Positions 1 to 10,220 of a stretch of DNA of 64,000 bases are shown here, piece by piece. A program made the position numbers and the translations under genes. The notes beneath the pieces are model-generated. The model ran no database searches. It had not been told where the DNA came from and worked only from the letters and a program-made list of their open reading frames with translations. This DNA is from a virus (taxonomy: Duplodnaviria; Heunggongvirae; Uroviricota; Caudoviricetes): the IMG/VR virus record IMGVR_UViG_3300027608_000020, one strand, 5' to 3'. Position 1 is the first letter of the stretch. Each line of letters starts with the position of its first letter.

Positions 1-494
1 TTGAAGTGGAAAAAACTACAGAAGGTCCAGCATGTTCTGCGTTGTTGTTTAAAGATTATATCAACAATGACCAAGAGTTAGTCATTGCCAACTGCGATCA
101 AATTATGGAATGGAACAGTAATTTATTTTTTCATAATGTGAGATTGTATGATGGTGCAGTTGTTACATATCATAGCGATACTGAAAAAAACAGTTATGTA
201 AAACTTGACCGAGAGGGTAATGCTGTACAGTTTGCAGAAAAGGAAGTTATCAGTAACGTCAGCCTGAATGGTATCCATTATTGGCATCGAGGCAGTTACT
301 TTGTTAATAGTGCCGAAGAAATGATCAAAGCAGACGATCGTGCGCCAAACGGAGAATTCTATGTTGCTACTACATATAACTACATGATTAAAGCAAACAA
401 GTCAGTGGGCATATATCATATACCTAACGAGCAACACCATGCGGTGGGAGTGCCGGTAGACCTAGAAAGATTTTTAAAATATGAAAAAACATAA
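1..494 (+). CDS. sugar-phosphate nucleotidyltransferase-like protein, C-terminal part (5' end lies outside the window)
   Basis: ORF 6..494; F-x-EKx...GIYH layout resembles the C-terminal region of RmlA/GlmU-type NTP transferases; no start context inside the window. Confidence 0.4.
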   Translation, partial: EVEKTTEGPACSALLFKDYINNDQELVIANCDQIMEWNSNLFFHNVRLYDGAVVTYHSDTEKNSYVKLDREGNAVQFAEKEVISNVSLNGIHYWHRGSYFVNSAEEMIKADDRAPNGEFYVATTYNYMIKANKSVGIYHIPNEQHHAVGVPVDLERFLKYEKT

Positions 495-804
495 ACTTAG
501 AGACTTTCATAGAGGGTGGTTCATTGGCAACTTTGATCCTGCCGTATTAAAAACAGAAAATATAGAAGTTGGGGTACTAACACATCTTAAAGGTGAGCAG
601 TGGCCAAAGCATTATCATGCCATTGCTACCGAATACAATGTATTAGTAAAAGGCCTAATGAGGGTCAACGGAGAAACATTAGTCGAAGGTGACGTGTTTA
701 TATTTGAACCAGGCGAACCAGCCGATCCGGAATTTTTAGAAGACTGTATTGTTGTGTGCGTCAAATCACCCAGTCTACCAGGAGACAAATATGAAGTTCT
801 TTAG
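481..804 (+). CDS. cupin-domain protein
   Basis: 107 aa; HYH...E...G...GD...G..P cupin-2 motif pattern; overlaps neighbours by a few codons (operon-like). Confidence 0.6.
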   Translation: MKKHKLRDFHRGWFIGNFDPAVLKTENIEVGVLTHLKGEQWPKHYHAIATEYNVLVKGLMRVNGETLVEGDVFIFEPGEPADPEFLEDCIVVCVKSPSLPGDKYEVL

Positions 805-1984
805 AACAAGAAATGAAATAGATTTAAACAAATATTATATAGCAACTTTTGAAATGAAGTCTGCTTCTACACTTAAAGATGCCGCATGGAACCTAGCTAT
901 TGGACAAAGTGTAGGTAATCCCAATGTACGTAACGAATGGGAAACCGACGAGCTGTTTGAAAACCATAGTTGTATTATTGTAGGTGACGAAGATTGGTTA
1001 GAAAATAATGTAGTGGGAAATGTTGAAATTGCATTCCCTGTAGCTAATACAGACTGGGATACTGATGGTATCAGTCACATGCTTTGCCAATTAATGGGCG
1101 GACACGTCGACATTGATATTATTACTAAATGTCGTTTGATAAAATTAGAGTTGCCCAAAACAGTAACTGACCATTTCCTTGGACCTAAGTTTGGTTTAAG
1201 CGGGTTCCGTGAGTTTACAGGACAATATAATAAGCCGTTGCTCGGTAGTATTGTTAAGCCTAAAATTGGCATTACTCCTGAAGTATTGCTAGAGATGGTT
1301 AAACAAATGGTAGACGGTGGGGTTGATTTTATCAAAGAAGATGAAATTATGAGTAACCCTGCGTGTGCCCCATTAGATCGCAGAGTAGACATCATTGCCA
1401 ACTACCTTGCTAAACAAAGTCGTAAGGTTGTGTTCTGTCATACCATTAATGCAGACCCGCATGTTATTGTAGATCGTGTAAATCGTGTACACGAACTAGG
1501 AGGCAACGGTGTACATATTAATGTGTTCAGCGGACTTGGTGTTTATAACAGTATTCGTAAAATGAATCTACCTTTGTTCCTGCATTTTCAAAAATCTGGT
1601 GATAAAGTGTTCACAGATAAAAATCATAGGTTTAGCATAGCTTGGACTGTGATTTGTCAATTAGCAACAATGATGGGTGTAGACACCATACAAACTGGAA
1701 TGATGGGCGGATATAGTAACGACGACCCTGAAGAAATTAAACAATGCCTTGAAATACTACGGGCAGGAAATACCACTCCTGCATTGAGTTGCGGATTTCA
1801 TCCTGGACTTGTAGAAAAAATTAATTCACTTGCGGGTACGGACTATCTTGCTAACGCAGGAGGGGCTGTACACGGTCACCCTGGCGGAACTATTGCAGGT
1901 GCGGGTGCAATGCGACAAGCCATAAATAGAGAATATAGCGTTGAATATCATCAGGCTATCTCTAAATGGGGTCTTATTACATAA
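791..1984 (+). CDS. RuBisCO large-subunit-like protein (RLP/RbcL family)
   Basis: RBS GGAGA 8 nt upstream of ATG 791; KPLLGSIVKPKIGIT (cf. RbcL KPKLGLS lysine loop), GGVDFIKEDE (cf. GGLDFTKDDE), C-terminal GGAVHGHPGG (cf. GGGTLGHPWG). Confidence 0.8.
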   Translation: MKFFRTRNEIDLNKYYIATFEMKSASTLKDAAWNLAIGQSVGNPNVRNEWETDELFENHSCIIVGDEDWLENNVVGNVEIAFPVANTDWDTDGISHMLCQLMGGHVDIDIITKCRLIKLELPKTVTDHFLGPKFGLSGFREFTGQYNKPLLGSIVKPKIGITPEVLLEMVKQMVDGGVDFIKEDEIMSNPACAPLDRRVDIIANYLAKQSRKVVFCHTINADPHVIVDRVNRVHELGGNGVHINVFSGLGVYNSIRKMNLPLFLHFQKSGDKVFTDKNHRFSIAWTVICQLATMMGVDTIQTGMMGGYSNDDPEEIKQCLEILRAGNTTPALSCGFHPGLVEKINSLAGTDYLANAGGAVHGHPGGTIAGAGAMRQAINREYSVEYHQAISKWGLIT

Positions 1985-2685
1985 TGAAAATTGCAATCGT
2001 GATGACTGGGCATGTAAAGGGTTGGAAGAAAACTTATGAAGGTTTACAAAACTGTGTTCTAGGTCATCATGATGTTGACCTGTATATAAGCACATGGGAC
2101 GTAGATAATGCCGGACGAAACGGCGATAAAGATAAGTTTCCCGCAGTTGAAATTGATCCTGTTATAGAACTATACAAACCTAAAAAATATTGTATAGAAA
2201 ATCATACCAAATACCACGAAAATAGATTTCCTACAATAAGTTTTGAAGATAGAGATGATGATGTGTTCAAAGTTGACGGACATGCAAAAGGCCACGGCTC
2301 ATATTGGGTTGAAAGAATGCGTGACATGTGGTACATTATTAAACAAGGGTATCTATTAATAGACAACCCGGAAGAATACGATCTAATTATGAGACTGAGA
2401 TTTGACATAGTGTTTACCAATATTGTTTTTCAATCAACAGATGTTCCGATTTTTTTATGGGTTAACCCAGAAAAAAAACACGTTTTTGATTTATTTGGTT
2501 ACGGTCCGCCAGATGCCATGAAAATATATTTCCATGTATTTGATCACATAGAGTCTATGTACAGAAATGACAATGTAAATATTGCACACTCAGATGAAAT
2601 GCTGGGCAAGTACCTAATGACCTATAATAATATCATGCCTAAACACGATCAATCTATTACACATATCGGAGCGTGGTCTAATTGA
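1984..2685 (+). CDS. hypothetical protein
   Basis: ATG overlaps the RLP stop (TAATG); 233 aa ORF. Confidence 0.5.
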   Translation: MKIAIVMTGHVKGWKKTYEGLQNCVLGHHDVDLYISTWDVDNAGRNGDKDKFPAVEIDPVIELYKPKKYCIENHTKYHENRFPTISFEDRDDDVFKVDGHAKGHGSYWVERMRDMWYIIKQGYLLIDNPEEYDLIMRLRFDIVFTNIVFQSTDVPIFLWVNPEKKHVFDLFGYGPPDAMKIYFHVFDHIESMYRNDNVNIAHSDEMLGKYLMTYNNIMPKHDQSITHIGAWSN

Positions 2686-3137
2686 AATTAATTGCCCATC
2701 GAGGACTTGTTAACGGTCCAAACAAAACTTTAGAAAACCAACCTCATAACATACGATCTACATTAGATCAAGGGTACGACTGTGAAATTGACCTTTGGGT
2801 GTTCGGTGATCGATTGTATCTAGGACACGACGGTCCACAATACAATGTTACAAACGAATTCATAGCCAATCCTAAGTTATGGATACACGCTAAGAATCTT
2901 GAAGCCTTCTATTGGCTTACTGACACACAGTTAACATATTTCTGGCATGAAAACGATAAGTTTACGCTTACCAGTAATGGATACATTTGGTCGTACCCTG
3001 AGCAGGGTCTTACAAACAAAAGTATACGACTAATGCCCGAATGGGCAGATCCGGAGTTGACAACAGTAAAAGAGAGTGTATGCTATGGAGTGTGTAGTGA
3101 TTACATTCTAAAAATAAATCAGCTACTTAGTGGCTAA
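2682..3137 (+). CDS. glycerophosphodiester phosphodiesterase (GDPD)-like protein
   Basis: N-terminal IAHRG motif with downstream E/D/H residues; apparent TTG start overlapping the upstream stop; GGAGCG 8 nt upstream. Confidence 0.5.
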   Translation: MKLIAHRGLVNGPNKTLENQPHNIRSTLDQGYDCEIDLWVFGDRLYLGHDGPQYNVTNEFIANPKLWIHAKNLEAFYWLTDTQLTYFWHENDKFTLTSNGYIWSYPEQGLTNKSIRLMPEWADPELTTVKESVCYGVCSDYILKINQLLSG

Positions 3138-3155
3138 TTTACAACACCACTGGGG

Positions 3156-3184
3156 TTGACAGAGATAAATAAACACTATATAAT
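3156..3184 (+). promoter_or_regulatory. sigma70-like promoter TTGACA-17-TATAAT
   Basis: exact consensus hexamers with 17-nt spacer. Confidence 0.55.
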
Positions 3185-3249
3185 AAATACTTAGACGGTT
3201 AGGAAAGTAAGTTGTTAAAAACTATTTTGTTCAAAAGAGCAAATAGGGG

Positions 3250-3278
3250 TTGACAACAGAACTAAATAACTGTATAAT
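3250..3278 (+). promoter_or_regulatory. sigma70-like promoter TTGACA-17-TATAAT
   Basis: exact consensus hexamers with 17-nt spacer, 70 nt downstream of the previous promoter. Confidence 0.55.
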
Positions 3279-3519
3279 TAACACATAGACAGCAATAATG
3301 CTGTTTGTGAATTTAAGGAAATTGGAAACAAAAATGCAATCATTTGTAAGTCATCAGCAATTTAATACGATGCCCAAACTGGCAGGTGTAATAGCCTGTT
3401 CTTGGTTATCGATTAATGGCGGAAGTCTATCATATGATCGTACACCAGAGATTCGCAGGGTCCGGAGGACTGTCGTGTAACACACAAGTTAACACAACAA
3501 ACTTCAAGGACCCTAGGAT

Positions 3520-3545
3520 TAAAAACCCTGGGGTTTTTTGTTTTC
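3520..3545. terminator. hairpin plus T-run (aaaaaccctggggtttttt), possibly bidirectional
   Basis: A-run / GC hairpin / T-run arrangement. Confidence 0.4.
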
Positions 3546-3556
3546 CGCAAGGAAAG

Positions 3557-3727
3557 ATGACAGAAATAGACATACGAAAACGTATTAAAGAAGCAGAGTT
3601 TACTAGACAGCATACTATTAGTCCAGAACAATTTAAAAAATTGATCGAAGACAAAATGGCTCGTGCTAAACAGTACAGCAATGCAAGGTGCAACAAAGTG
3701 GAAACGAGGTCCACGCAACACACCTAA
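3557..3727 (+). CDS. small hypothetical protein (56 aa)
   Basis: AAGGAAAG RBS upstream of ATG; part of ORF-track 3416..3727 downstream of the terminator. Confidence 0.25.
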   Translation: MTEIDIRKRIKEAEFTRQHTISPEQFKKLIEDKMARAKQYSNARCNKVETRSTQHT

Positions 3728-3920
3728 ACTAGTTGCAAACGGGCGGCGTACCGGATGGCTTATCCTTATGTGGATAAAAAAATGGTTACGTATTAAAGCA
3801 TTCTCTATCCTCCACAAGAGGTGACAAGTGGGTTCATCCATGTAGAGTGCTTTAATACACACATTCTATTTCACCTTTTGACGGTGTCAAAACGCATAGC
3901 GGAGAGTGTGTAACAATTTT

Positions 3921-4009
3921 GGGAGCCTGTTCCCCTCAGCGGACTGTAAATCCGTTGCCTTTAATTGGGGGGTGGCTGGCGGATGGTTCGATTCCTTCAG
4001 GCTCCACCA
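3921..4009 (+). tRNA. tRNA-Tyr(GTA), long variable arm
   Basis: anticodon arm gcgga-ctGTAaa-tccgt; T-arm GGTTCGATTCC; CCA encoded. Confidence 0.65.
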
Positions 4010-4015
4010 AGTTAT

Positions 4016-4090
4016 GCCGTTGTAGTCCTCTGGGAGGGCACTGGATTGTCTATCCAATTAAGGCGGGTTCGATTCCCGTCGACGGCGCCA
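4016..4090 (+). tRNA. tRNA-like, Asp(GTC)-like, atypical (weak D stem, U37)
   Basis: 7-bp acceptor gccgttg/cgacggc, T-arm gcggg-ttcgatt-cccgt, loop ttGTCta; likely a degenerate duplicate of the canonical Asp at 4746. Confidence 0.45.
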
Positions 4091-4097
4091 ATTTTAT

Positions 4098-4173
4098 TCC
4101 CCAGTAGCACAGCGGTAGTTGCACTTGACTGTTAATCAAGGTGTCGGTAGTTCGATCCTACCCTGGGGAGCCA
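4098..4173 (+). tRNA. tRNA-Asn(GTT)
   Basis: anticodon arm cttga-ctGTTaa-tcaag; acceptor tccccag/ctgggga; CCA. Confidence 0.75.
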
Positions 4174-4253
4174 ATTAATAAACATATTAGACGTCTGGCT
4201 AGTCCTTGGAGGCTAGTGGAATGTAGTTCTCCGGGCTAGTATGTTTTTTAATT

Positions 4254-4329
4254 GGGCTGGTAGTGATACTGGGGTACACGGGGCACTTGCAATGCTCAGA
4301 TTGGAGTTCGATCCTCCACCGGTCCACCA
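4254..4329 (+). tRNA. tRNA-Ala(TGC)
   Basis: loop ctTGCaa; G3:U70 pair in the acceptor stem (Ala identity); CCA. Confidence 0.7.
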
Positions 4330-4336
4330 AGTTAAT

Positions 4337-4422
4337 GGATAGTTGTGCGCTGGGCGCAAGCTGGTTTGCTAAACCGGTCTATTGTGAAAACGGTAACAGT
4401 TCGATTCTGTATCTATCCACCA
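4337..4422 (+). tRNA. tRNA-Ser(GCT), class II
   Basis: anticodon arm ctggt-ttGCTaa-accgg; long variable arm; CCA. Confidence 0.65.
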
Positions 4423-4428
4423 GTTTGT

Positions 4429-4504
4429 TGCGGGTAAGGTCTGGTCACTACTCCGGTCTCATAAGCCAGGAGCATCGTTGGTTCGAATCCAACACCCGCT
4501 ACCA
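4429..4504 (+). tRNA. tRNA-Met or Ile2 (CAT)
   Basis: loop ctCATaa; T-arm gttgg-ttcgaat-ccaac; 1:72 U.U mismatch; CCA. Confidence 0.6.
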
Positions 4505-4509
4505 ATTTT

Positions 4510-4569
4510 AGGATCAGTTCAGCAAACTTAAAAACTTTTTTATTATTCAAAAAAACCAAAGTTGATCCT
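4510..4569. repeat. array spacer hairpin, copy 1 (TTTTAGG-atca-GTTCAGCAAA...tgat-CCTGTTGTATTT)
   Basis: 7-bp stem aggatca/tgatcct enclosing an AT-rich loop; flanks conserved with the other copies. Confidence 0.6.
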
Positions 4570-4578
4570 GTTGTATTT

Positions 4579-4652
4579 CCTCTTGTAGTTAAATGGTATA
4601 ACAGTCGGCTGATAACCGGCCATTACAAGTTCGATTCTTGTCGAGAGGACCA
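4579..4652 (+). tRNA. tRNA-Ile(GAT)
   Basis: anticodon arm gtcgg-ctGATaa-ccggc; CCA. Confidence 0.75.
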
Positions 4653-4660
4653 ATTTTTAT

Positions 4661-4738
4661 GTAGGTGTGGCGGAGTGGCCCAACGCAACGGTCTGCAAAA
4701 TCGTAAAACCGTCAGTTCAAATCTGACCACCTACTCCA
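4661..4738 (+). tRNA. tRNA-Cys(GCA)
   Basis: anticodon arm acggt-ctGCAaa-atcgt; T-arm gtcag-ttcaaat-ctgac; acceptor gtaggtg/cacctac; CCA. Confidence 0.65.
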
Positions 4739-4745
4739 AGTTAAT

Positions 4746-4822
4746 GCTCCGGTAGTGTAGCGGTTTATCACGCAACCCTGTCACGGTTGAGGTCACGGGT
4801 TCGATTCCCGTCCGGGGCGCCA
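4746..4822 (+). tRNA. tRNA-Asp(GTC)
   Basis: caacc-ctGTCac-ggttg; close to E. coli tRNA-Asp; CCA. Confidence 0.8.
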
Positions 4823-4827
4823 GTTTT

Positions 4828-4877
4828 AGGATCAGTTCAGCAAACTTAAGCAACTTTCTTTTATCCAGAAACTAAAA
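4828..4877. repeat. array spacer hairpin, copy 2
   Basis: same motif and same stem (aggatca/tgatcct) as copy 1. Confidence 0.6.
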
Positions 4878-4897
4878 AGTTGATCCTGTTGTATTTT

Positions 4898-4972
4898 ACT
4901 CACGTCGTCTAGTGGCTAGGACGCTACCCTTTCAAGGTGGAGAAGCGGGATCGATACCCGTCGTGAGTACCA
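4898..4972 (+). tRNA. tRNA-Glu(TTC)
   Basis: ctacc-ctTTCaa-ggtgg; TCGTCTAG D region as in bacterial tRNA-Glu; CCA. Confidence 0.7.
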
Positions 4973-4978
4973 ATTTTT

Positions 4979-5052
4979 GCCCTTTTAGTTAAATGGTATA
5001 ACAACTGTTTTGTAATCAGTAATTGGCAGTTCGATTCTGTCATGGGGCACCA
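4979..5052 (+). tRNA. tRNA-Thr(TGT)
   Basis: loop ttTGTaa; acceptor gcccttt/atggggc; CCA. Confidence 0.6.
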
Positions 5053-5058
5053 ATTTAT

Positions 5059-5133
5059 GTATCCTTAGTGTTAACGGCAGCACGACAGTCTCCAAAACTG
5101 CTAGTGGGAGTTCAAATCTCTCAGGGTACGCCA
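5059..5133 (+). tRNA. tRNA-Trp(CCA)
   Basis: agtCTCCAAAactg as in E. coli tRNA-Trp; T-arm gggag-ttcaaat-ctctc; CCA. Confidence 0.75.
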
Positions 5134-5138
5134 TTTTT

Positions 5139-5193
5139 AGGTTGCGTTCAGCAAATTCAAAAATTCAACTTTTAATTGAAAAATAAGCAACCT
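5139..5193. repeat. array spacer hairpin, copy 3 (covarying stem aggttgc/gcaacct)
   Basis: same flanks TTTTAGG...GTTCAGCAAA...CCTGTTATTTT with compensatory changes in the 4 inner stem pairs. Confidence 0.6.
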
Positions 5194-5203
5194 GTTATTT
5201 TGT

Positions 5204-5277
5204 TGGGGCATTGTGTAATGGTAGCACAACAGACTTTGACTCTGTTAGTTTAGGTTCGATCCCTAATGCCCCTGCCA
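5204..5277 (+). tRNA. tRNA-Gln(TTG)
   Basis: acaga-ctTTGac-tctgt; weak 1:72 pair and G73 as in bacterial tRNA-Gln; CCA. Confidence 0.75.
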
Positions 5278-5284
5278 GTTTTAT

Positions 5285-5360
5285 CTCTCTTTCGGTTAGC
5301 GGCTATGCCACCTGGTTTGGGGCCAGGATTTCGTGGGTTCGAGTCCCACAGGAGAGACCA
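5285..5360 (+). tRNA. tRNA-Pro(TGG)-like, atypical D-arm
   Basis: cctgg-ttTGGgg-ccagg; T-arm gtggg-ttcgagt-cccac; D region does not fold canonically; canonical Pro(TGG) at 10540. Confidence 0.5.
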
Positions 5361-5368
5361 AGTTCTAT

Positions 5369-5444
5369 GGTGTTAGTAGTGTAGTGGTCTGCACATTGCT
5401 CTGTGAAAGCGATAGTATGGGATCGTTCCCCATCTAACACCCCA
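5369..5444 (+). tRNA. tRNA-His(GTG) with encoded G-1
   Basis: ttgct-ctGTGaa-agcga; extra 5' G opposite C73; CCA. Confidence 0.75.
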
Positions 5445-5455
5445 ATAAGTTTTAT

Positions 5456-5531
5456 GCCAAGATAGCTCATCAGGTAGAGCACCAGTTTGAAGCATTGGGT
5501 GTGGTTGGTTCGAGTCCAACTCTTGGTACCA
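5456..5531 (+). tRNA. tRNA-Phe(GAA)
   Basis: ccagt-ttGAAgc-attgg; GATAGCTCA D region; CCA. Confidence 0.75.
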
Positions 5532-5536
5532 GTTTT

Positions 5537-5647
5537 AGGATAGGTTCAGCAAATAACTTAACTACTTCTCTTGAAAAGAAAAGGAACGGTTCGACTCCGT
5601 AGCCGCAAGGTTTGGTGTAACGGTAGCACTATGTTAAAAACTATCCT
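5537..5647. repeat. array spacer hairpin, copy 4 (stem aggatag/ctatcct), enlarged loop carrying a tRNA T-arm-like fragment
   Basis: TTTTAGGATAGGTTCAGCAAA...CTATCCTGTTATTTT; loop includes ggaacGGTTCGACTCCgt and a D-arm-like tggtgtaacggtagcac that do not assemble into a cloverleaf. Confidence 0.5.
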
Positions 5648-5668
5648 GTTATTTTAAAAGGAAATCAA

Positions 5669-5797
5669 ATGGCAAATGTCAAAAAAGGTAACCTAACAGC
5701 GCCTCCACAATGGTGGAAGCATTTGAAAGATTGGAAACGAGTGTTCTGGAAATCAGAACGCCAAGCACAGAAACGTAACATTAAACAAGGAGAATGA
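5669..5797 (+). CDS. small basic hypothetical protein (42 aa) inside the tRNA array
   Basis: AAAGGAAA RBS then ATG; MANVKKGNLTAPPQWWKHLKDWKRVFWKSERQAQKRNIKQGE. Confidence 0.25.
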   Translation: MANVKKGNLTAPPQWWKHLKDWKRVFWKSERQAQKRNIKQGE

Positions 5798-5883
5798 CAT
5801 GAAACGTTCAGGTAAACGATAGTGTCATCCTAGACCCCCGTATGGTCCTGGATGGCACGTGAAAGACAATTCTTTACGATCCA

Positions 5884-5959
5884 TCCACAGCTGGCGTTAA
5901 CGGTAGCGTACTCGGCTCTTAACCGATGAGGTGTCAGTTCAAATCTGACGCTGTGGACC
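5884..5959 (+). tRNA. tRNA-Lys(CTT)
   Basis: tcgg-ctCTTaa-ccga; acceptor ccacagc/gctgtgg; T-arm gtcag-ttcaaat-ctgac; CCA. Confidence 0.6.
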
Positions 5960-5962
5960 ATA

Positions 5963-6036
5963 TGGGGGTAAAACTTTAAGGTGAAGTACCGGACTTTTAA
6001 TCCGGCTAACTCGGATCGTTACCGAGTACCCCTACC
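5963..6036 (+). tRNA. tRNA-Lys(TTT)
   Basis: ccgga-ctTTTaa-tccgg; acceptor gggggta/tacccct; CCA. Confidence 0.75.
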
Positions 6037-6113
6037 ATATAAAAACACACTGGTCTACCGCCACCGAGAGGTAGTTAAAGACAATGACAAGCAACAGCCA
6101 GTGTGTTTCTATA
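6037..6113. repeat. long hairpin H1 (about 19-bp stem tATAAAAACACACTGG / CCAGTGTGTTTCTATa enclosing about 43 nt)
   Basis: near-perfect inverted repeat starting right at the CCA of tRNA-Lys(TTT). Confidence 0.6.
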
Positions 6114-6118
6114 TGGTG

Positions 6119-6192
6119 ACTATATAAAAACACGCTCGCGGCTCCCGGGGCTGGGGGTACGTTGTACGACTACCCTAGAGTGTGTTTCTATA
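6119..6192. repeat. long hairpin H2 (ctATATAAAAACACgctc / gagtGTGTTTCTATATgg), tandem to H1
   Basis: second inverted repeat of the same sequence family with a GC-rich loop; ends at the 5' end of the next tRNA. Confidence 0.55.
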
Positions 6193-6268
6193 TGGTAACG
6201 TAGCATAGTGGCTAATGCACCACCTTCATACGGTGTTTATCGTGAGTTCGAGTCTCACCGTTACTACC
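6193..6268 (+). tRNA. tRNA-Met or Ile2 (CAT)
   Basis: cacc-ttCATac-ggtg; T-arm gtgag-ttcgagt-ctcac; CCA. Confidence 0.65.
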
Positions 6269-6273
6269 AATTT

Positions 6274-6349
6274 TGCCCCTTTCGTATAATGGATAATACA
6301 CTAGGCTACGAACCTGGGAATGGTGGTTCGATTCCATCAGGGGGCACCA
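6274..6349 (+). tRNA. tRNA-Arg(ACG)
   Basis: ctagg-ctACGaa-cctgg; D stem gtat/atac; CCA. Confidence 0.75.
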
Positions 6350-6582
6350 AGTTTTGTAAGTGTCAGCAAGTGAAGTCACGCTGTCTAGGTTTCTTCGAAG
6401 GACCAAAGCAGTAAAAGGCAAATGGGTTCAACTCCCACCCGCGGGGAACTGCGGAGGTCCGTAACGGGGACTACGCTGGATGGATCCCAAGTGATATCCA
6501 TCGTGCTCGAGGTCAGGCTAGGCGGCCGGTAAGTCCTGAATAAATCTACGATAAATGCGGCGTAGGCTTACAAATTCAATAT

Positions 6583-6658
6583 GTCCCTATCGTCTAGTGG
6601 CCTAGGACACCAGCCTTTCACGTTGGGTACACGAGTTCGAATCTCGTTAGGGACGCCA
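6583..6658 (+). tRNA. tRNA-Glu(TTC), second copy
   Basis: ccagc-ctTTCac-gttgg; TCGTCTAGTGG D region; perfect acceptor gtcccta/tagggac; CCA. Confidence 0.75.
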
Positions 6659-6674
6659 TATATAGGAGTAGATC

Positions 6675-6848
6675 ATGAAAACATTATTTTTTGAAAATGT
6701 CTTTAACAAAGAAAAATTCTATTGTAAAGACACCAAAGACATCCGTGTAATAGACGGCATAGAATATCTACGAGTTTTTAAAGATGGCACACAACGAGAT
6801 TGTCTAGTAAAGAAAGATAGTCTTAGAAAAGTACAAGAAAAGAAATAA
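6675..6848 (+). CDS. small hypothetical protein (57 aa) inside the tRNA array
   Basis: AGGAG RBS 6 nt upstream of ATG; MKTLFFENVFNKEKFYCKDTKDIRVIDGIEYLRVFKDGTQRDCLVKKDSLRKVQEKK. Confidence 0.3.
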   Translation: MKTLFFENVFNKEKFYCKDTKDIRVIDGIEYLRVFKDGTQRDCLVKKDSLRKVQEKK

Positions 6849-6849
6849 T

Positions 6850-6923
6850 GCTTCGGTAGTTTAATGGCAGAACAATGCCGTGACATGGCGTAGATGGGAG
6901 TTCAATTCTCCAACGAAGTACCA
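6850..6923 (+). tRNA. tRNA-Val(GAC)
   Basis: atgcc-gtGACat-ggcgt (cf. E. coli ccttGACatgg); CCA. Confidence 0.65.
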
Positions 6924-6928
6924 ATTAT

Positions 6929-7004
6929 GCGGGTAAGGTGTTTATGGATACACATCAGTCTTCCAAACTGAAGTAGACCGGTTCGATACCGGCTACCCGC
7001 TCCA
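6929..7004 (+). tRNA. tRNA-Gly(TCC)
   Basis: tcagt-ctTCCaa-actga; acceptor gcgggta/tacccgc; CCA. Confidence 0.75.
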
Positions 7005-7005
7005 T

Positions 7006-7094
7006 GGGGGGTTATCGGGGCTGGGCCCTGCGCTGTCTTGAAAACAGATGGACTTTTAACGAGGTTGGAGTTCGATTCTACCATCCCCCCGCCA
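7006..7094 (+). tRNA. tRNA-Ser(TGA), class II (imperfect T stem)
   Basis: ctgt-ctTGAaa-acag as in bacterial tRNA-Ser(UGA); long variable arm; 6-bp G-C acceptor; CCA. Confidence 0.5.
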
Positions 7095-7101
7095 AATTAT
7101 T

Positions 7102-7193
7102 GCCAGCGAGACTTGGAAGTCAGAGAGGTCTTATAAGCCTTTTAGCGCCAGATTAGCGTTCTTGAGAGGGTTCGATCCCCTCCGCTGGTACCA
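7102..7193 (+). tRNA. unusual 92-nt tRNA-like gene (anticodon TAT? plus a second 5-bp/7-nt-loop hairpin in the variable-arm position)
   Basis: perfect acceptor gccagcg/cgctggt, A73-CCA, T-arm gaggg-ttcgatc-ccctc; internal hairpins gaggt-ctTATaa-gcctt and agcgc-cagatta-gcgtt; short D hairpin gact-tgga-agtc. Confidence 0.45.
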
Positions 7194-7202
7194 GTTTTAT
7201 TT

Positions 7203-7277
7203 CCGGCTTTCGTATAATGGAAAATACAATAGGCTTCTACCCTGTGAATAGGAGTTCGATTCTTCTAGGCCGGACCA
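7203..7277 (+). tRNA. tRNA-Arg(TCT)
   Basis: atagg-ctTCTac-cctgt; D stem gtat/atac; CCA. Confidence 0.75.
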
Positions 7278-7286
7278 AGTTTTTAT

Positions 7287-7363
7287 GCCCCGTTACGCTA
7301 ATTGGTAGTGCGGATTCTCTCAAAAGGAGTTGGCTGTCTGTTCGAATCAGACACGGGGTACCA
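7287..7363 (+). tRNA. short-variable-arm tRNA, anticodon CAA (Leu codon UUG); family member 1
   Basis: gccccgt-TACGCTAATTGGTAGTGCGG-attct-ctCAAaa-ggagt-tggct-gtctg-TTCGAAT-cagac-acggggt-A-CCA; 77 nt. Confidence 0.7.
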
Positions 7364-7522
7364 GTTTAGGGATAGACGACACAATGAGTCCCAGATAGTC
7401 TAGCATGGCTTTGGTTGGCCATGTGACACCGCAGACGACTATAAGGTAGTATAAACTCTTGTGTTCGAGACAATCCGATGAGGCTTGCTAACAACAAGAT
7501 AGTCGGGCTCCCGCCTTATAAT

Positions 7523-7599
7523 GCCTTCGTACGCTAATTGGTAGTGCGGCTTGCCTTAGAAGCAGGTGGTTGGGGGTTCGAATCCGCCCGAAGGTACCA
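7523..7599 (+). tRNA. short-variable-arm tRNA, anticodon TAG (Leu codons CUA/CUG); family member 2
   Basis: gccttcg-TACGCTAATTGGTAGTGCGG-cttgc-ctTAGaa-gcagg-tggtt-...TTCGAAT...cgaaggt-A-CCA; 77 nt. Confidence 0.7.
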
Positions 7600-7669
7600 A
7601 ACCAGGATAGTGTGAAAGAGAACTATCGACAGTCCGTCTAGGGCCAATTGGGTGAGAAGCCCATTCAAT

Positions 7670-7746
7670 GCCCCTGTACGCTAATTGGTAGTGCGGATAG
7701 ACTTAAAATCTGTTGGTTGGCGGTTCGAATCTGCCCAGGGGTACCA
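7670..7746 (+). tRNA. short-variable-arm tRNA, anticodon TAA (Leu codons UUA/UUG); family member 3
   Basis: gcccctg-TACGCTAATTGGTAGTGCGG-ataga-ctTAAaa-tctgt-tggtt-ggcgg-TTCGAAT-ctgcc-caggggt-A-CCA; 77 nt. Confidence 0.7.
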
Positions 7747-7803
7747 TTACTTGTCCTGGCCAAGATAATAGAAATAAATAGAATGTTACCAATAAGGCTT
7801 AAC

Positions 7804-8736
7804 ATGAAAAAGAAACTCTGCTTAGTATATCAACTGTTTACAAAGTGCAATATAGGTTGCAAGTATTGTTATAATTATTTTGATCAAGATGTACGTCCTT
7901 TCAATTATTATACATCTAAAGTTGGTAAACTCTTAGAATTATACCATGATGAAACTTGTTTTGTTTTAAATGGTGGTGAGCCCTTGTTGCTTAAAGGATT
8001 TCAACATCTAGTAAATCAAGCGACTGAGAAGGCAAAAACATATACCTATACTAACGGTACTCTAAGCACATGGCACTATAAGAGATTTATTGATAGTCTT
8101 GAGCACAAAGACAAGTTTTACATGACAATCAGTTTACACTTTATGGAAGTGCTAAGAGATAACAAGTTACCGGACAAATACTTTAAAAATATTGAACTTT
8201 TTGCTAAGAATATTCCCAACTTAAAAATCAACCTAGTAGTTGATGAAGAGTTTCAAGGTGAATACTTGCAAGTGATTAGACAAACTATGAGAGAAATTAA
8301 ACAAAGAACTTCTCTTAAGAATGTTAATATTTTGATTGCAGATCACATGTATGAAGATGAATTTAAACTATTACGTGTGTTAAATCAAGATTTTATTGAC
8401 TTTGTTGAAGAAATTGACAGTAATTTTGCTTATAAAAATTGCATGTGGGACAATACCAGACAATCATTAACAGAAATGATTAAAGACATAAAAGAAAATA
8501 TTGTGCTAAAGTTAGCCGGAAAGGATTTTAAGATTCCGTATGAATATGAATTTGGACAAATATTTTTTCTAGAAAGTCCCGAAGGAATGATTGTTCAGGA
8601 ATTTTTCGGTGAAGGACGTCAAGAACATAAAATACCGTTTGATCAATTTGACGCATTTGTTGAAGATATCAAACCAAAAGTACAAAGCAAGCCTCTTAGA
8701 AAAATTACAACATTATCCTCTGTTGGAATAATCTAA
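7804..8736 (+). CDS. radical SAM domain protein (possible QueE-like)
   Basis: CNIGCKYC (CxxxCxxC) near the N-terminus and FVLNGGEPLL SAM-binding motif; start moved to ATG 7804 (TAAGG RBS) because the ORF-track 5' extension overlaps tRNA 7670..7746; no SPASM Cys cluster. Confidence 0.7.
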   Translation: MKKKLCLVYQLFTKCNIGCKYCYNYFDQDVRPFNYYTSKVGKLLELYHDETCFVLNGGEPLLLKGFQHLVNQATEKAKTYTYTNGTLSTWHYKRFIDSLEHKDKFYMTISLHFMEVLRDNKLPDKYFKNIELFAKNIPNLKINLVVDEEFQGEYLQVIRQTMREIKQRTSLKNVNILIADHMYEDEFKLLRVLNQDFIDFVEEIDSNFAYKNCMWDNTRQSLTEMIKDIKENIVLKLAGKDFKIPYEYEFGQIFFLESPEGMIVQEFFGEGRQEHKIPFDQFDAFVEDIKPKVQSKPLRKITTLSSVGII

Positions 8737-8910
8737 TCACAAATTATTGATAAAGCGAAGTGCTTTGTTGACGTTGGTAAAATATCGCACAGTTAGTTCT
8801 ATATCGTAGATATCTCGAACCATAACGATGCAGACACCCTCATGTAATGATAGATGAAAGTGTAATCCTCCGGGGGTAACGCTTTCGTATGTCTTCATAC
8901 AAATATTTAC

Positions 8911-10214: not shown

Positions 10215-10220
10215 GATATT

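What the first reader, a model, noticed from the sequence alone, without database searches (positions are those of the whole stretch)
1..3137. RuBisCO large-subunit-like protein embedded in a sugar-nucleotide-type gene cluster on a phage
ORF 791-1984 carries the RbcL family hallmarks: KPLLGSIVKPKIGIT (activator lysine loop), GGVDFIKEDE (metal ligands) and C-terminal GGAVHGHPGG. It is translationally coupled to a cupin (481-804), an upstream sugar-phosphate nucleotidyltransferase fragment, a downstream hypothetical gene and a GDPD-like phosphodiesterase. This neighbourhood is unlike the methionine-salvage (YkrW) or CBB contexts. It suggests an RLP working on a phosphorylated sugar or sugar-nucleotide intermediate, for example in glycan or nucleotide hypermodification. 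RLPs are rarely if ever reported on phage genomes.
Basis: partly seen in the sequence, partly recalled or inferred. Interest (0 to 1): 0.7.

Follow-up and report, generated by a model that had tools for sequence, protein, structure and literature searches.

The report
RuBisCO-like enzyme in phage sugar-activation module
A large phage carries a non-CO2-fixing relative of RuBisCO that, across hundreds of phages, SAR11, Legionella and tiny archaea, almost always sits next to a sugar-activating enzyme, so it probably makes an unusual activated sugar for surface glycans; the reaction is unknown.

Summary
Window 791-1984 encodes a 397-aa RuBisCO large-subunit homologue (Pfam 2.6e-35; AlphaFold pLDDT 95; TM 0.9 to form III RuBisCO). 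It lies in a five-gene overlapping operon: nucleotidyltransferase, cupin, RLP, GT-A-like transferase, short GDPD-like phosphodiesterase. The host genome is a PA5oct-like jumbo phage.

It is not a carboxylase. The Mg/carbamate core is kept (K175, K177, K201, D203, E204). E60, T65, N123, H294 and K334 are replaced, invariantly across its clade (G, N, G, Q, Y). It falls far below every curated family cut-off (form III, MtnW, OiaX).

It belongs to a monophyletic clade (93% NJ bootstrap). That clade matches the divergent phage "form IV-like" RLPs reported by Jaffe et al. 2019, so phage RLPs are not unreported.

I found no report of the following. In 86 of 90 fully flanked loci (IMG/VR phages, SAR11, Legionella, CPR, DPANN) the RLP lies within 3.5 kb of a 4EVW-type sugar nucleotidyltransferase, usually directly adjacent. 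GDPD-like (58), cupin (52) and GT-A-like (40) genes, or LicD in Legionellales, are frequent partners.

Best reading: an enolising isomerase or epimerase of a phosphorylated keto-sugar that feeds an NDP-sugar for glycan decoration. Substrate and step order remain inferred.

The parts
1..494 (+). C-terminal two-thirds of a 240-aa sugar-phosphate nucleotidyltransferase (NDP-sugar pyrophosphorylase type, PDB 4EVW-like). The gene starts upstream of the window.
   Evidence: The full gene is on L001 8982-9704, with an N-terminal IIPMAGVGSRF...PKPLI loop. L001 is 100% identical to the window over 3862 nt. The family profile A3 hits 4evw at 3.2e-37 and RmlA/GlmU/ManC-type enzymes at 1e-11 to 1e-8. It is found near the RLP in 86 of 90 loci.
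481..804 (+). Small (107 aa) single-domain metal cupin.
   Evidence: Pfam Cupin_7 and Cupin_2 are sub-threshold. Family alignment A4 has G12, H44, E51 and N53 invariant and H46 nearly invariant, forming an HxH...E metal motif. The profile gives weak hits to quercetinase, a 113-aa 'mannose-6-phosphate isomerase' cupin (7zvm) and KdgF. It is present in 52 of 90 loci. It overlaps both neighbouring genes by 14 nt.
791..1984 (+). RuBisCO-like protein (397 aa) of the divergent phage/SAR11/CPR/DPANN clade. The Mg2+/carbamate core is retained and the carboxylation residues are replaced.
   Evidence: Supported. Active-site table: K175, K177, K201, D203, E204, S379, G381, G403 and G404 are kept. The changes are E60G, T65N, N123G, H294Q, R295K, H298D, H327Q, K334Y and G380C. 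The clade is monophyletic in 56 of 60 NJ bootstraps.
1984..2685 (+). GT-A-fold transferase-like protein (233 aa) of a family related to DUF7796. It is the likely user of the activated sugar.
   Evidence: It has no Pfam or NCBIfam hit itself. It matches the family HMM at 3.7e-37, and 7 of 29 family members hit DUF7796. The AlphaFold2 model has pLDDT 90.5. The top 50 Foldseek PDB hits are all GT6/GT8 GT-A enzymes (alpha-1,3-GalT, BoGT6a, glycogenin), best E 1.7e-7, TM about 0.5. The family is in 40 of 90 loci. It is fused to a GDPD-like domain in L087 8206-9276.
2682..3137 (+). Short (151 aa) GDPD-like phosphodiesterase; TTG start overlapping the previous stop codon (TTGA).
   Evidence: Alignment A2 has H6, R7, N19, E35, D37, H49, H69, K71 and D92 invariant. 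The profile hits glycerophosphodiester phosphodiesterases 3i10 (4.7e-5) and 7e0v (7e-4) over the HRG...ExD...HD segment. It is present in 58 of 90 loci. It is about 100 residues shorter than canonical GDPD domains.

Best explanation
The gene encodes a non-carboxylating RuBisCO-like protein. It uses the conserved carbamylated-lysine/Mg2+ centre (K182 = K201, D184, E185, with K156 and K158) to enolise a phosphorylated, polyhydroxylated keto-sugar. It releases an isomer of that sugar (epimer, carbonyl-shifted or 1,3-isomerised product) rather than adding CO2. It works as one step of a compact pathway. The adjacent 4EVW-type nucleotidyltransferase turns the sugar phosphate into a nucleotide-activated donor (NDP-X or CDP-X). 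The small metal cupin and the short GDPD-like phosphodiesterase are optional tailoring or feeding steps. A transferase then puts the product on a glycan or glycolipid: the GT-A-like protein in this phage, LicD in Legionellales. On the phage the five overlapping genes form one operon inside a larger glycan-gene island, so the product most likely decorates a host or virion surface glycan during infection. What is shown: homology, fold, the residue pattern, the gene linkage and its breadth. What is inferred: enolisation chemistry, a sugar-phosphate substrate, whether the RLP acts before or after nucleotidylation, and the glycan destination. My favoured specific version (about 0.2) is that the RLP, with or without the cupin, substitutes for a phosphomutase. 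It would move the carbonyl along a ketopentose phosphate, as the Rhodospirillum rubrum RLP does, to give the phosphate ester that the nucleotidyltransferase accepts.
For: (1) It is a superfamily member with high-confidence fold. (2) The metal/carbamate and proton-transfer core is invariant in all 22 clade representatives (K175, K177, K201, D203, E204, S379, G381, G403), which argues for an active enzyme. (3) The carboxylation-specific residues are replaced in nearly every member: E60G 22/22, N123G 21/22, H294Q 22/22, K334Y 22/22, T65N 21/22. This points to a different but conserved reaction. (4) The positions of the distal pocket stay polar or charged (R295 becomes K/R; H327 is H in 19/22; H298 is D/E in 15/22). 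In MtnW the same positions are P, L and S. That argues for a hydroxylated or anionic distal end rather than a methylthio or deoxy group. (5) Gene linkage. By tblastn the NTP-transferase is found in 76/80 viral and 44/50 genomic loci, usually within tens of nt on the same strand, in either order. By HMM it is within 3.5 kb in 86/90 loci that have at least 3.5 kb on both sides. It is within 1.2 kb in 36/40 RLP clusters dereplicated at 70% identity. RLP and NTP-transferase distance matrices correlate at r = 0.75, with 0 of 999 Mantel permutations reaching that value. One RLP-NTP_transferase single ORF exists (P0122). (6) Paralogues of this nucleotidyltransferase are fused to beta-phosphoglucomutase-family HAD domains in cultured cyanophages (S-CAM9 gp067), in Pelagibacter and in other phages. 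So this subfamily is normally fed by a sugar-phosphate-rearranging partner. (7) Downstream users are present: a GT-A-fold protein here and LicD, a CDP-X phosphotransferase family, divergently adjacent in four Legionellales genomes. The loci are rich in NAD-epimerases, glycosyltransferases, WavE, and FkbM and other methyltransferases. (8) Precedents. An RLP and a cupin act consecutively in the R. rubrum MTA-isoprenoid shunt (PMC6302742). A nucleotide-activated ketopentose, CDP-D-xylulose, is a known capsule precursor (bioRxiv 10.64898/2026.05.22.727167).
Against: There is no biochemical datum for any clade member. The substrate, the nucleotide and the order of steps are all inferred. Adjacent genes in glycan islands can be linked by co-transfer without acting in one pathway, and the Mantel correlation is partly expected from shared ancestry. 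The fusion evidence is thin. P0122 is a single 2.5 kb contig. The apparent GDPD-RLP (P0151) and X-RLP (P0156) fusions sit on contigs where the RLP is split, which suggests frameshifts. No role can be assigned to the GDPD-like protein. It is about 100 residues shorter than a full GDPD barrel. The cupin, GDPD-like and GT-A-like genes are each missing from a third to a half of the loci. A GT-A glycosyltransferase (glycosyl donor) and LicD (phospho-X donor) imply different linkage chemistry, so the product may not be used in the same way everywhere. The window protein has Q at H327 where most of the clade has H.
Confidence: 0.6

Rival explanations
1. It is a genuine CO2-fixing RuBisCO (form III-like) carried as a phage auxiliary metabolic gene. 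It would carboxylate ribulose-1,5-bisphosphate, for example in a nucleotide-salvage (AMP) pathway.
For: The best structural matches are form III RuBisCOs. The best NCBIfam model is rubisco_III. K175, K177, K201, D203 and E204 are conserved. CPR and DPANN organisms that carry clade members are known for the AMP pathway (PMC6389311).
Against: The loop-6 lysine K334 is Y in 22/22 members, H294 is Q in 22/22, N123 is G in 21/22, E60 is G in 22/22 and T65 is N in 21/22. By established RuBisCO enzymology these residues are required for carboxylation and C-C cleavage. The rubisco_III score is 168 bits against a cut-off of 497. The clade separates from the form III-like representatives with 93% bootstrap. 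The conserved module contains no phosphoribulokinase, e2b2 isomerase or AMP phosphorylase.
Confidence: 0.02
2. It is a sulfur- or SAM-by-product salvage RLP. It would be either a DK-MTP-1-P enolase (MtnW) or a Rhodospirillum-type 5-methylthioribulose-1-P (or 5-deoxyribulose-1-P) isomerase. It would work with the cupin as a methylsulfurylase to yield DXP-like products, which the transferase then cytidylylates.
For: The top PDB sequence hit is an MtnW-type RLP, 4nas. An RLP followed by a cupin is exactly the pairing of the MTA-isoprenoid shunt. In the MEP pathway a cytidylyltransferase (IspD) acts shortly after DXP (textbook knowledge).
Against: MtnW models score 153 and 119 bits against cut-offs of 409 and 514. 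The MtnW catalytic lysine at the N123 position is Gly in 21/22 members. The distal pocket is polar or charged, not hydrophobic as in MtnW. No mtnA, mtnK, mtnP, mtnB or dxr genes are in the conserved neighbourhood. The cupin is absent from 38 of 90 loci, whereas the transferase is nearly universal. The cupin family profile finds only generic cupins in the PDB. The partners are glycan transferases.
Confidence: 0.07
3. The RLP acts after activation. The nucleotidyltransferase first makes an NDP-sugar, or an NDP-keto-sugar arises from it. The RLP, and the cupin in the manner of RmlC/FdtA, then epimerises or isomerises the nucleotide-linked keto-sugar by enolisation.
For: Cupins that enolise NDP-4-keto-6-deoxy sugars are standard in deoxysugar pathways (established knowledge). 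NAD-dependent epimerase/dehydratase genes are the next most frequent neighbours, in 44 of 130 loci. Retained basic and His residues at the 295 and 327 positions could bind a diphosphate. The tight RLP-transferase adjacency fits either order.
Against: No characterised RuBisCO-superfamily enzyme uses a nucleotide-linked substrate (my knowledge of the family). A 4,6-dehydratase is not part of the conserved core; Legionellales and DPANN loci have only the RLP plus the transferase. HAD-mutase fusions of the transferase paralogues point to a partner that acts before nucleotidylation.
Confidence: 0.2
4. The module modifies nucleotides or DNA (hypermodification), or it degrades or mimics immune signalling nucleotides as an anti-defence function. 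It would then have nothing to do with glycans.
For: The gene sits on a jumbo phage next to a tRNA array. ThyX is a neighbour in about 10 loci. A phosphodiesterase plus a nucleotidyltransferase could in principle act on nucleotide-derived molecules. Another RLP group is fused to TIR domains (P0168).
Against: None of the five proteins hits PADLOC. The same module lies in the chromosomes of SAR11, Legionella, Verrucomicrobia, CPR and DPANN within glycan islands. The partners are GT-A-like, LicD, WavE and other glycosyltransferases. No DNA glycosylase, transferase or kinase typical of hypermodification is conserved with it.
Confidence: 0.05

Closest known systems
Phage-encoded 'form IV-like' RLP clade with Beckwithbacteria sequences (Jaffe, Castelle, Dupont & Banfield 2019, Mol Biol Evol; PMC6389311)
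   Same: Both are divergent RLPs on large myovirus-like phage contigs from many environments, with only part of the key residues kept. Both group with Beckwithbacteria (CPR) sequences. Here a Beckwithbacteria MAG locus (L101, 50% identity) carries the same module.
   Different: That paper left the function 'unclear' and did not describe the gene neighbourhood. The conserved nucleotidyltransferase/cupin/GDPD-like/GT-A module and the wide cellular distribution (SAR11, Legionella, DPANN) are additions from this analysis.
Rhodospirillum rubrum RLP (5-methylthio-D-ribulose-1-phosphate 1,3-isomerase) plus cupin MTXu-5-P methylsulfurylase (MTA-isoprenoid shunt)
   Same: Both are RuBisCO-superfamily enolising isomerases that act on a ketose phosphate and work next to a small cupin.
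   Different: The RLP clade is different: DeepYkr-like representatives lie outside the 93%-supported clade. The distal pocket here is polar. There is no methionine-salvage context. The universal partner here is a nucleotidyltransferase, not the cupin.
MtnW/YkrW 2,3-diketo-5-methylthiopentyl-1-phosphate enolase (PDB 4nas, 2oek)
   Same: It is the best PDB sequence hit (about 28% identity). It has the same fold and Mg/carbamate core and also lacks K334.
   Different: The window protein scores far below the equivalog cut-offs. The catalytic Lys at the N123 position is Gly. R295 and H327 equivalents are retained here but lost in MtnW.
OiaX/OiaT-type RLPs of D-apiose and acid-sugar catabolism (3-oxo-isoapionate-4-phosphate decarboxylase and transcarboxylase/hydrolase; PDB 3nwr-like)
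   Same: It is the second-best PDB hit. These RLPs act on a phosphorylated keto-sugar acid and keep basic residues at 295 and 327.
   Different: The OiaX model scores 149.5 bits against a cut-off of 700. OiaX-like representatives keep E60, N123, H294 and K334. They occur in catabolic operons with kinases and dehydrogenases, not with nucleotidyltransferases (my knowledge of Carter et al. 2018; not re-read here).
Form III RuBisCO (Thermococcus/Pyrococcus; PDB 3a12, 2d69)
   Same: These are the closest structures (TM 0.88-0.90). K175, K177, KCX201, D203 and E204 are identical.
   Different: Sequence identity is 24-26%. The carboxylation residues K334, H294, N123, E60 and T65 are all replaced.
CDP-ribitol / CDP-D-xylulose / CDP-D-arabinitol and Lic (CDP-choline) pathways that feed LicD-family phosphotransferases
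   Same: Both combine a small nucleotidyltransferase that activates a non-anomeric phosphate ester with a LicD transferase. CDP-D-xylulose shows that ketopentose phosphates can be nucleotide-activated. LicD lies next to RLP-NTPtr in Legionellales.
   Different: Those pathways use reductases or kinases, never an RLP. The transferase here is 4EVW/RmlA-like rather than IspD/TarI-like. The phage has a GT-A-like protein in place of LicD.

Membership tests
RuBisCO large-subunit superfamily (Pfam PF00016 and fold) | Catalytic-domain HMM above the gathering score. | tested here: met
   122.6 bits against a cut-off of 30.1, E 2.6e-35.
RuBisCO large-subunit superfamily (Pfam PF00016 and fold) | N-terminal alpha/beta domain plus C-terminal (beta/alpha)8 barrel. 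| tested here: met
   AlphaFold2 pLDDT 95.3. Foldseek TM 0.88-0.90 over about 420-440 aligned columns to form III RuBisCO.
RuBisCO large-subunit superfamily (Pfam PF00016 and fold) | Carbamylatable Lys plus Asp/Glu metal ligands (K201, D203, E204), together with K175. | tested here: met
   The motif GGVDFIKEDE and KPK are present and invariant in 22/22 clade members. Carbamylation itself cannot be tested here.
Bona fide RuBisCO (forms I-III) | Loop-6 Lys334. | tested here: not met
   Tyr in the window protein and in 22/22 clade members.
Bona fide RuBisCO (forms I-III) | His294, Asn123, Glu60 and Thr65. | tested here: not met
   Gln, Gly, Gly and Asn respectively, nearly invariant in the clade.
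Bona fide RuBisCO (forms I-III) | Curated model cut-offs (TIGR03326 form III; NF003252; NF010002). | tested here: not met
   168.4 against 497, 158.5 against 438, and 95.7 against 489 bits.
Bona fide RuBisCO (forms I-III) | RuBP carboxylase activity. | not testable with these tools
   This needs an enzyme assay.
MtnW/YkrW DK-MTP-1-P enolase | Equivalog cut-offs (NF007095, TIGR03332). | tested here: not met
   152.9 against 409 and 118.7 against 513.6 bits. A true MtnW representative (P0200) scores 606.
MtnW/YkrW DK-MTP-1-P enolase | Catalytic Lys in the N-domain at the N123-equivalent position (FGK motif). | tested here: not met
   MtnW (P0200) has K at this position; the window protein has G.
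MtnW/YkrW DK-MTP-1-P enolase | Methionine-salvage gene context (mtnA, mtnK, mtnB, mtnX, mtnD). | tested here: not met
   None is among the recurrent neighbour clusters in 130 loci. The annotation of neighbours was only partial.
OiaX 3-oxo-isoapionate-4-phosphate decarboxylase | Equivalog cut-off (NF042437). | tested here: not met
   149.5 against 700 bits.
Phage/Beckwithbacteria form IV-like RLP clade (Jaffe et al. 2019) | Encoded on myovirus-like phage contigs; divergent key residues; clusters with Beckwithbacteria RLPs. | tested here: inconclusive
   All described properties match: phage context, the residue pattern and a Beckwithbacteria homologue at 50% identity.
Sugar-phosphate nucleotidyltransferase (window 1-494, full length on L001) | N-terminal G-x-G-x-R...K loop and an NTP_transferase fold. 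| tested here: met
   PMAGVGSRF...PKPLI is present, and G12, K25, G85, D109, E156 and K157 are conserved. The profile hits 4evw at 3.2e-37 and RmlA at about 1e-10. The precomputed Pfam hits are only weak.
Glycerophosphodiester phosphodiesterase (window 2682-3137) | Catalytic HRG...E-x-D...HD residues. | tested here: met
   H6, R7, E35, D37 and H49 are invariant. The profile hits 3i10 at 4.7e-5.
Glycerophosphodiester phosphodiesterase (window 2682-3137) | Pfam or NCBIfam model above threshold and a full-length TIM barrel (about 230-250 aa). | tested here: not met
   No Pfam or NCBIfam hit. The protein is 151 aa and only the first ~108 profile positions align. No structure was predicted.
GT-A glycosyltransferases (window 1984-2685) | GT-A Rossmann-like fold. 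| tested here: met
   The top 50 Foldseek hits are all GT6/GT8 enzymes, best E 1.7e-7, probability 1.00, TM 0.45-0.53.
GT-A glycosyltransferases (window 1984-2685) | DxD metal/nucleotide motif. | tested here: inconclusive
   D141 is invariant, and R139 and D169 are nearly invariant, across the broad family, but there is no canonical DxD. The structural equivalence of these residues was not checked.
Cupin superfamily (window 481-804) | Cupin motif 1 with metal ligands (HxH...E) and a beta-barrel. | tested here: inconclusive
   H44 and E51 are invariant and H46 nearly so. Pfam scores 17.6 and 16.2 bits against cut-offs of about 27. The profile hits cupins at 2e-5 to 6e-3. No structure was predicted.

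The most novel reading that the evidence does not exclude
This clade would be the first branch of the RuBisCO superfamily devoted to anabolic nucleotide-sugar biosynthesis. It would catalyse a so-far undescribed enolisation-driven rearrangement of a keto-sugar phosphate, possibly replacing a phosphomutase. The product would be nucleotide-activated and built into surface glycans. The pathway would be shared by abundant SAR11 bacteria, Legionella, CPR/DPANN symbionts and hundreds of jumbo phages, implying a widespread and still unidentified sugar in aquatic microbial and viral glycans.
Probability: 0.45. Interest if true: 0.8.

Novelty: new variant of a known kind. Interest (0 to 1): 0.62.

Why it matters
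RLPs are a classic case of functional divergence from the world's most abundant enzyme. Only a handful of RLP reactions are known, and all are catabolic or salvage reactions. The large phage-associated RLP clade was noticed in 2019 but left without a function. This analysis shows three things. The clade is tied almost obligatorily to a sugar nucleotidyltransferase and often to a cupin, a mini-GDPD and a GT-A or LicD transferase. It has its own invariant active-site signature (GQS[IV]GNP, Q294, Y334, SCG). It also lives in cultured bacteria (Legionella nautarum, L. drozanskii, L. maceachernii, Azospirillum oleiclasticum, Nonomuraea rosea). Together these turn an orphan family into a directly testable hypothesis. 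If confirmed, it would add a new reaction type to the superfamily and reveal an unknown sugar in SAR11 and phage glycans, which bears on phage-host recognition in lakes and oceans. It would also caution against counting such genes as viral 'carbon-fixation AMGs'.

Tried and rejected
1. No match to deposited phage genomes: megablast of 1-3400 and tblastn of the RLP against INPHARED both found nothing. The RLP is therefore absent from those genomes. BFVD likewise holds only generic TIM barrels.

2. I first read H294 as retained and R295 as lost, from the pairwise 4nas alignment. A 113-sequence MAFFT alignment anchored on form III-like sequences corrected this to H294Q and R295K.

3. The upstream genes on L001 (TPP enzyme, SDR, AroB-like TIGR04425, HpcH-like, RfbH, GT34, methyltransferase) looked like one large pathway with the RLP. 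I rejected this because they co-occur with the RLP in only 0-7 of 80 viral loci.

4. My first clustering suggested 'long GDPD-like' proteins. This was an artefact of single linkage through one fusion protein. They are the GT-A-like family.

5. The Rosetta-stone fusions P0151 and P0156 are downgraded: the RLP is split on those contigs. The 706-aa 'fusion' ORF in Azospirillum is a spurious overlapping frame in high-GC DNA.

6. The first NJ bootstrap run had undefined distances for very divergent pairs. I repeated it with capped distances.

I used a narrower alignment, A6, instead.

8. Literature searches for RLP with nucleotidyltransferase, cupin, cytidylyltransferase, jumbo phage or IV-GOS found nothing on function. 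Tabita 2007 and Wang 2012 were not held.

9. The defence or anti-defence idea: no PADLOC hits.

10. I could not assign the nucleotide (CTP or another) or any role to the GDPD-like protein.

Full report
**1. What is in the sequence**

Five same-strand ORFs fill window 1-3137:
- 1-494, cut by the window edge
- 481-804
- 791-1984
- 1984-2685
- 2682-3137

Each start overlaps the previous stop, by 14, 14, 1 (TAATG) and 4 (TTGA) nt. An AGGAG lies 6-7 nt before the RLP start codon. This is one translationally coupled operon.

Two perfect TTGACA-17-TATAAT promoters follow it, at 3156-3184 and 3250-3278. After them come an array of 37 tRNA genes and a tmRNA.

The rest of the window carries phage genes:
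- a baseplate-wedge/virion structural protein, 42520-48351
- a clamp loader, 53256-54185
- an endonuclease, a radical-SAM protein, an NDP-sugar epimerase and a glycosyltransferase

The clamp loader is 53.6% identical to that of the ~287 kb Pseudomonas jumbo phage PA5oct group. The phage assignment is therefore sound.

**2. The RLP is real**

- ORF 791-1984 matches Pfam RuBisCO_large at E 2.6e-35.
- It matches 99 distinct PDB RuBisCO/RLP sequences. The best are 4nas (an MtnW-type RLP, 9.9e-38), 3nwr, and the form III enzymes 2cwx and 8dht.
- An AlphaFold2 model built on 21 clade sequences has pLDDT 95.3 and pTM 0.92.
- The model superposes on form III RuBisCO with TM 0.88-0.90 and E about 1e-33.

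**3. It is not a carboxylase and belongs to no curated RLP family**

I aligned 113 superfamily representatives and mapped the canonical sites through a form III-like sequence. The motif-to-number mapping is standard knowledge: AAE-SS-GTW, GN, KPK, KDDE, HxHRAMH, LHxGT..GK, SGG, GGG.

For the window protein and 21 clade representatives:

| Site | Result in the clade |
|---|---|
| K175, K177, K201, D203, E204, S379, G381, G403 | retained, 22/22 |
| G404 | retained, 20/22 |
| E60 | G, 22/22 |
| T65 | N, 21/22 |
| N123 | G, 21/22 |
| H294 | Q, 22/22 |
| R295 | K 15, R 7 |
| H298 | D 12, E 3, I 5 |
| H327 | H 19, Q 3 (Q in the window) |
| K334 | Y, 22/22 |
| G380 | C, 20/22 |

K334, H294, N123 and the E60/T65 pair from the partner subunit are needed for carboxylation, hydration and cleavage (established RuBisCO enzymology). 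CO2 fixation is therefore excluded for practical purposes. The intact carbamate/Mg2+ core and the strict conservation of the replacement residues argue for an active enzyme with a different, conserved reaction.

NCBIfam scores lie far below every cut-off:
- rubisco_III: 168 against 497
- MtnW: 153 against 409
- OiaX: 150 against 700

The MtnW catalytic lysine position is Gly.

**4. Phylogenetic position and prior art**

A HMMER search of 1.84 billion 50%-identity representatives gave 1394 superfamily hits. The scores fall steadily from 58% to about 32% identity (P0121-P0159). Ordinary RuBisCO/RLP sequences then follow at about 30%.

In a neighbour-joining tree of 112 representatives these 22 sequences form one bipartition in 56 of 60 bootstraps. 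Groups outside it were labelled with NCBIfam as form III-like, OiaX-like, MtnW and DeepYkr-like. Deeper branching is unresolved.

The 90%-identity database holds 2830 clusters with E <= 1e-10. The best 120 are 80-96% identical and sit on contigs of up to 361 kb. The identical protein occurs on more than 22 metagenomic contigs.

Jaffe et al. 2019 (PMC6389311) already reported:
- about 80 non-redundant, highly divergent form IV-like RLPs on phage contigs, including a curated ~200 kb phage
- Myoviridae-type terminases on those contigs
- two Beckwithbacteria sequences grouping with them
- function 'unclear'

The present protein fits that description. A Beckwithbacteria MAG carries a 50%-identical homologue with the same neighbours. 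So the statement that phage RLPs are unreported is wrong.

None occurs in 50,697 deposited phage genomes or in the BFVD viral structure set.

**5. The wider locus**

L001 is 100% identical to the window over 3862 nt and extends it 9.2 kb upstream. It contains:
- a 591-aa ThDP enzyme
- a FabG-like SDR
- an AroB-related putative cyclising phospholyase (TIGR04425, 394.6 bits against a cut-off of 400)
- an HpcH/HpaI-like protein
- RfbH, the CDP-4-keto-6-deoxyglucose 3-dehydrase (434.5 bits against a cut-off of 423)
- a GT34 glycosyltransferase
- two unknown 267-aa proteins
- a 371-aa methyltransferase
- the complete 240-aa nucleotidyltransferase

These upstream genes are not conserved with the RLP.

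**6. The conserved module**

I collected 80 IMG/VR loci, chosen from 381 relatives, and 50 loci from GTDB species genomes.

tblastn with the L001 proteins gave these counts:

| Gene | Viral loci (of 80) | Genomic loci (of 50) |
|---|---|---|
| Nucleotidyltransferase | 76 | 44 |
| GDPD-like | 66 | 23 |
| Cupin | 58 | 16 |
| TPP, SDR, AroB-like, HpcH, RfbH, GT34, methyltransferase genes | 0-7 | 0-4 |

Details of the linkage:
- The transferase is usually on the same strand, within tens of nucleotides or separated only by the cupin. It can lie on either side of the RLP.
- HMMs applied to the 90 loci with at least 3.5 kb on both flanks find, within 3.5 kb of the RLP: transferase 86, GDPD-like 58, cupin 52, GT-A-like 40, LicD 4.
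- After dereplication at 70% RLP identity, 36 of 40 clusters keep the transferase within 1.2 kb.
- RLP and transferase pairwise distances correlate at r = 0.75, with 0 of 999 permutations reaching that value. Part of this is expected from common descent.
- A single-ORF RLP-NTP_transferase fusion exists (P0122), but only on one short contig.
- Two other apparent fusions are probably frameshift artefacts.

Carriers include:
- a complete Candidatus Pelagibacter chromosome and many SAR11 single-cell genomes
- a Verrucomicrobiae chromosome
- Legionella nautarum, L. maceachernii and L. drozanskii, plus Tatlockia
- Azospirillum oleiclasticum, Nonomuraea rosea and Turneriella
- Beckwithbacteria and Saccharibacteria
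- Woese-, Nano-, Pace- and Micrarchaeota

**7. The partners**

*Nucleotidyltransferase*
- It has the G-x-G-x-R...K loop.
- As a family profile it hits the uncharacterised Vibrio cholerae NDP-sugar pyrophosphorylase 4evw (3e-37). RmlA, ManC and GlmU follow at 1e-11 to 1e-8.
- Paralogues at 41% identity occur in cultured T4-like cyanophages.
- In those cyanophages, in Pelagibacter and in other phages, the paralogues are fused to a beta-phosphoglucomutase-family HAD domain.
- This subfamily is therefore typically fed by an enzyme that rearranges sugar phosphates.

*Cupin*
- It keeps an HxH...E metal motif.
- It resembles only generic small cupins, including a 113-aa 'mannose-6-phosphate isomerase' and KdgF.

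*GDPD-like protein (151 aa)*
- It keeps all catalytic residues of glycerophosphodiester phosphodiesterases.
- It is about 100 residues short of a full barrel. Its role is unresolved.

*'Hypothetical' ORF 1984-2685*
- It belongs to a family found in 55 of 130 loci that partly matches DUF7796.
- It models at pLDDT 90.5 as a GT-A fold. Its nearest structural neighbours are GT6/GT8 glycosyltransferases.

*Other neighbours*
- In the four Legionellales genomes none of these accessories is present. A LicD-family phosphotransferase (Pfam 1e-42, nearest to the Mf1 cholinephosphotransferase) lies divergently next to RLP-transferase.
- Other frequent neighbours are NAD-epimerases/dehydratases, FkbM and other methyltransferases, WavE, glycosyltransferases, DegT aminotransferases and radical-SAM/SPASM proteins.
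- These loci are glycan islands.

**8. Mechanistic reading**

Every characterised member of the superfamily uses the carbamate-Mg2+ site to stabilise an enediolate formed from a phosphorylated 2- or 3-keto compound. This is established for RuBisCO, MtnW, the R. rubrum isomerase and OiaX/OiaT.

The clade keeps that machinery and the backbone phosphate cradle (G381, G403, G404). It keeps a basic residue at 295 and usually His at 327, with Asp or Glu at 298. In MtnW the same positions are P, L and S. I infer a polyhydroxylated or doubly anionic keto-sugar phosphate as the substrate, not a methylthio or deoxy compound.

The near-obligate transferase partner and the GT-A or LicD users imply that the product ends up as a nucleotide-activated donor for a glycan or glycolipid.

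Two precedents make this plausible:
- An RLP and a cupin act in successive steps in the R. rubrum MTA-isoprenoid shunt.
- CDP-D-xylulose is a natural capsule precursor.

My favoured specific version has low confidence. In it the RLP, with or without the cupin, replaces the HAD mutase seen in the paralogous system. It would move the carbonyl or phosphate register of a ketopentose phosphate so that the transferase can use it.

The alternative order, with the RLP acting on an NDP-keto-sugar, cannot be excluded.

**9. Rivals considered**

- A true carboxylase is excluded by the residue pattern and the scores.
- Methionine or SAM-by-product salvage is unlikely. The catalytic Lys is missing, the distal pocket is polar and there is no mtn gene context.
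- DNA or nucleotide hypermodification and anti-defence roles lack support. There are no PADLOC hits, the homologues are chromosomal and lie in glycan islands, and the partners are transferases.

**10. Novelty and limits**

The protein is a member of an already noticed phage RLP clade. The points I found in no paper of the searchable library (CC-licensed PMC and bioRxiv only) are:
- the conserved transferase/cupin/GDPD-like/GT-A (or LicD) module
- the invariant active-site signature
- the presence of the clade in cultured bacteria

No experiment exists. The substrate, the nucleotide, the step order, the role of the GDPD-like protein and the glycan target are all inferences. The tree is neighbour-joining on representatives only. 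The habitat of the source samples was not checked.

Noticed in passing
window 3156-3184 and 3250-3278: Two perfect sigma-70 consensus promoters (TTGACA, 17 nt, TATAAT; 12 of 12 matches) sit directly after the RLP operon and ahead of the tRNA array.
   Followed up: partly
window 4016-17969 and 29719-29792; tmRNA 19333-19746: There are 37 tRNA genes, most in a dense array, plus a tmRNA with tag ANDEQFALAA. Its best Rfam clan model is the betaproteobacterial tmRNA, and it also matches the permuted tmRNA model. This hints at a betaproteobacterial host.
   Followed up: partly
window 7648-8736: A radical-SAM protein (PHROG radical SAM/QueE-like hits) is embedded in the tRNA array. The longest ORF's 5' end overlaps tRNA-Leu 7670-7746, so the real start is probably near 7789.
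   Followed up: no
L001 1-9000 (9.2 kb immediately upstream of the window; same genome): A second sugar-tailoring set lies here: a 591-aa ThDP enzyme (YerE-like architecture by my recollection), a FabG-like SDR, an AroB-related TIGR04425 putative cyclising phospholyase, an HpcH/HpaI-like protein, RfbH (E1 3-dehydrase, above its NCBIfam cut-off), GT34, two unknown 267-aa proteins and a 371-aa methyltransferase. It suggests a branched or 3,6-dideoxy sugar, or a cyclitol pathway. It is not conserved with the RLP.
   Followed up: partly
P0168 (583 aa): This protein is a TIR domain (residues 3-134) fused to a complete RLP of a different RLP group. The TIR part weakly matches Thoeris ThsB and Argonaute-TIR defence models. 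It may be a defence-associated RLP.
   Followed up: no
P0157 (726 aa) and P0177 (742 aa): These are IF-2B/e2b2-type (ribose-1,5-bisphosphate isomerase-like) domains fused to form III-type RuBisCO. They are single-polypeptide versions of two AMP-pathway steps.
   Followed up: no
L142 4344-5729 (Synechococcus phage S-CAM9 gp067); also L085 13554-14951, L094 2758-4128, L079 6762-8126: Beta-phosphoglucomutase-family HAD domains are fused to the same 4EVW-type nucleotidyltransferase in cultured cyanophages, in Pelagibacter and in uncultured phages. They lie inside glycosyltransferase clusters.
   Followed up: partly
window 21467-22483 and 38015-38992: The same phage window holds further glycan genes: a glycosyltransferase-like protein and an NDP-sugar epimerase/dehydratase (PHROG 540, 4e-67).
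   Followed up: no
window 3298-4015: About 700 nt lie between the promoters and the first tRNA with no convincing ORF, tRNA or Rfam hit. They contain only overlapping short ORFs on both strands and a terminator-like hairpin at 3937-3957.
   Followed up: no
L129 12592-13920 (Nonomuraea rosea): An S-adenosylhomocysteine-hydrolase-like NAD-binding protein lies about 0.7 kb downstream of the nucleotidyltransferase gene of the GDPD-like/RLP/transferase set in this actinomycete. ORF calling in this high-GC DNA is uncertain.
   Followed up: no
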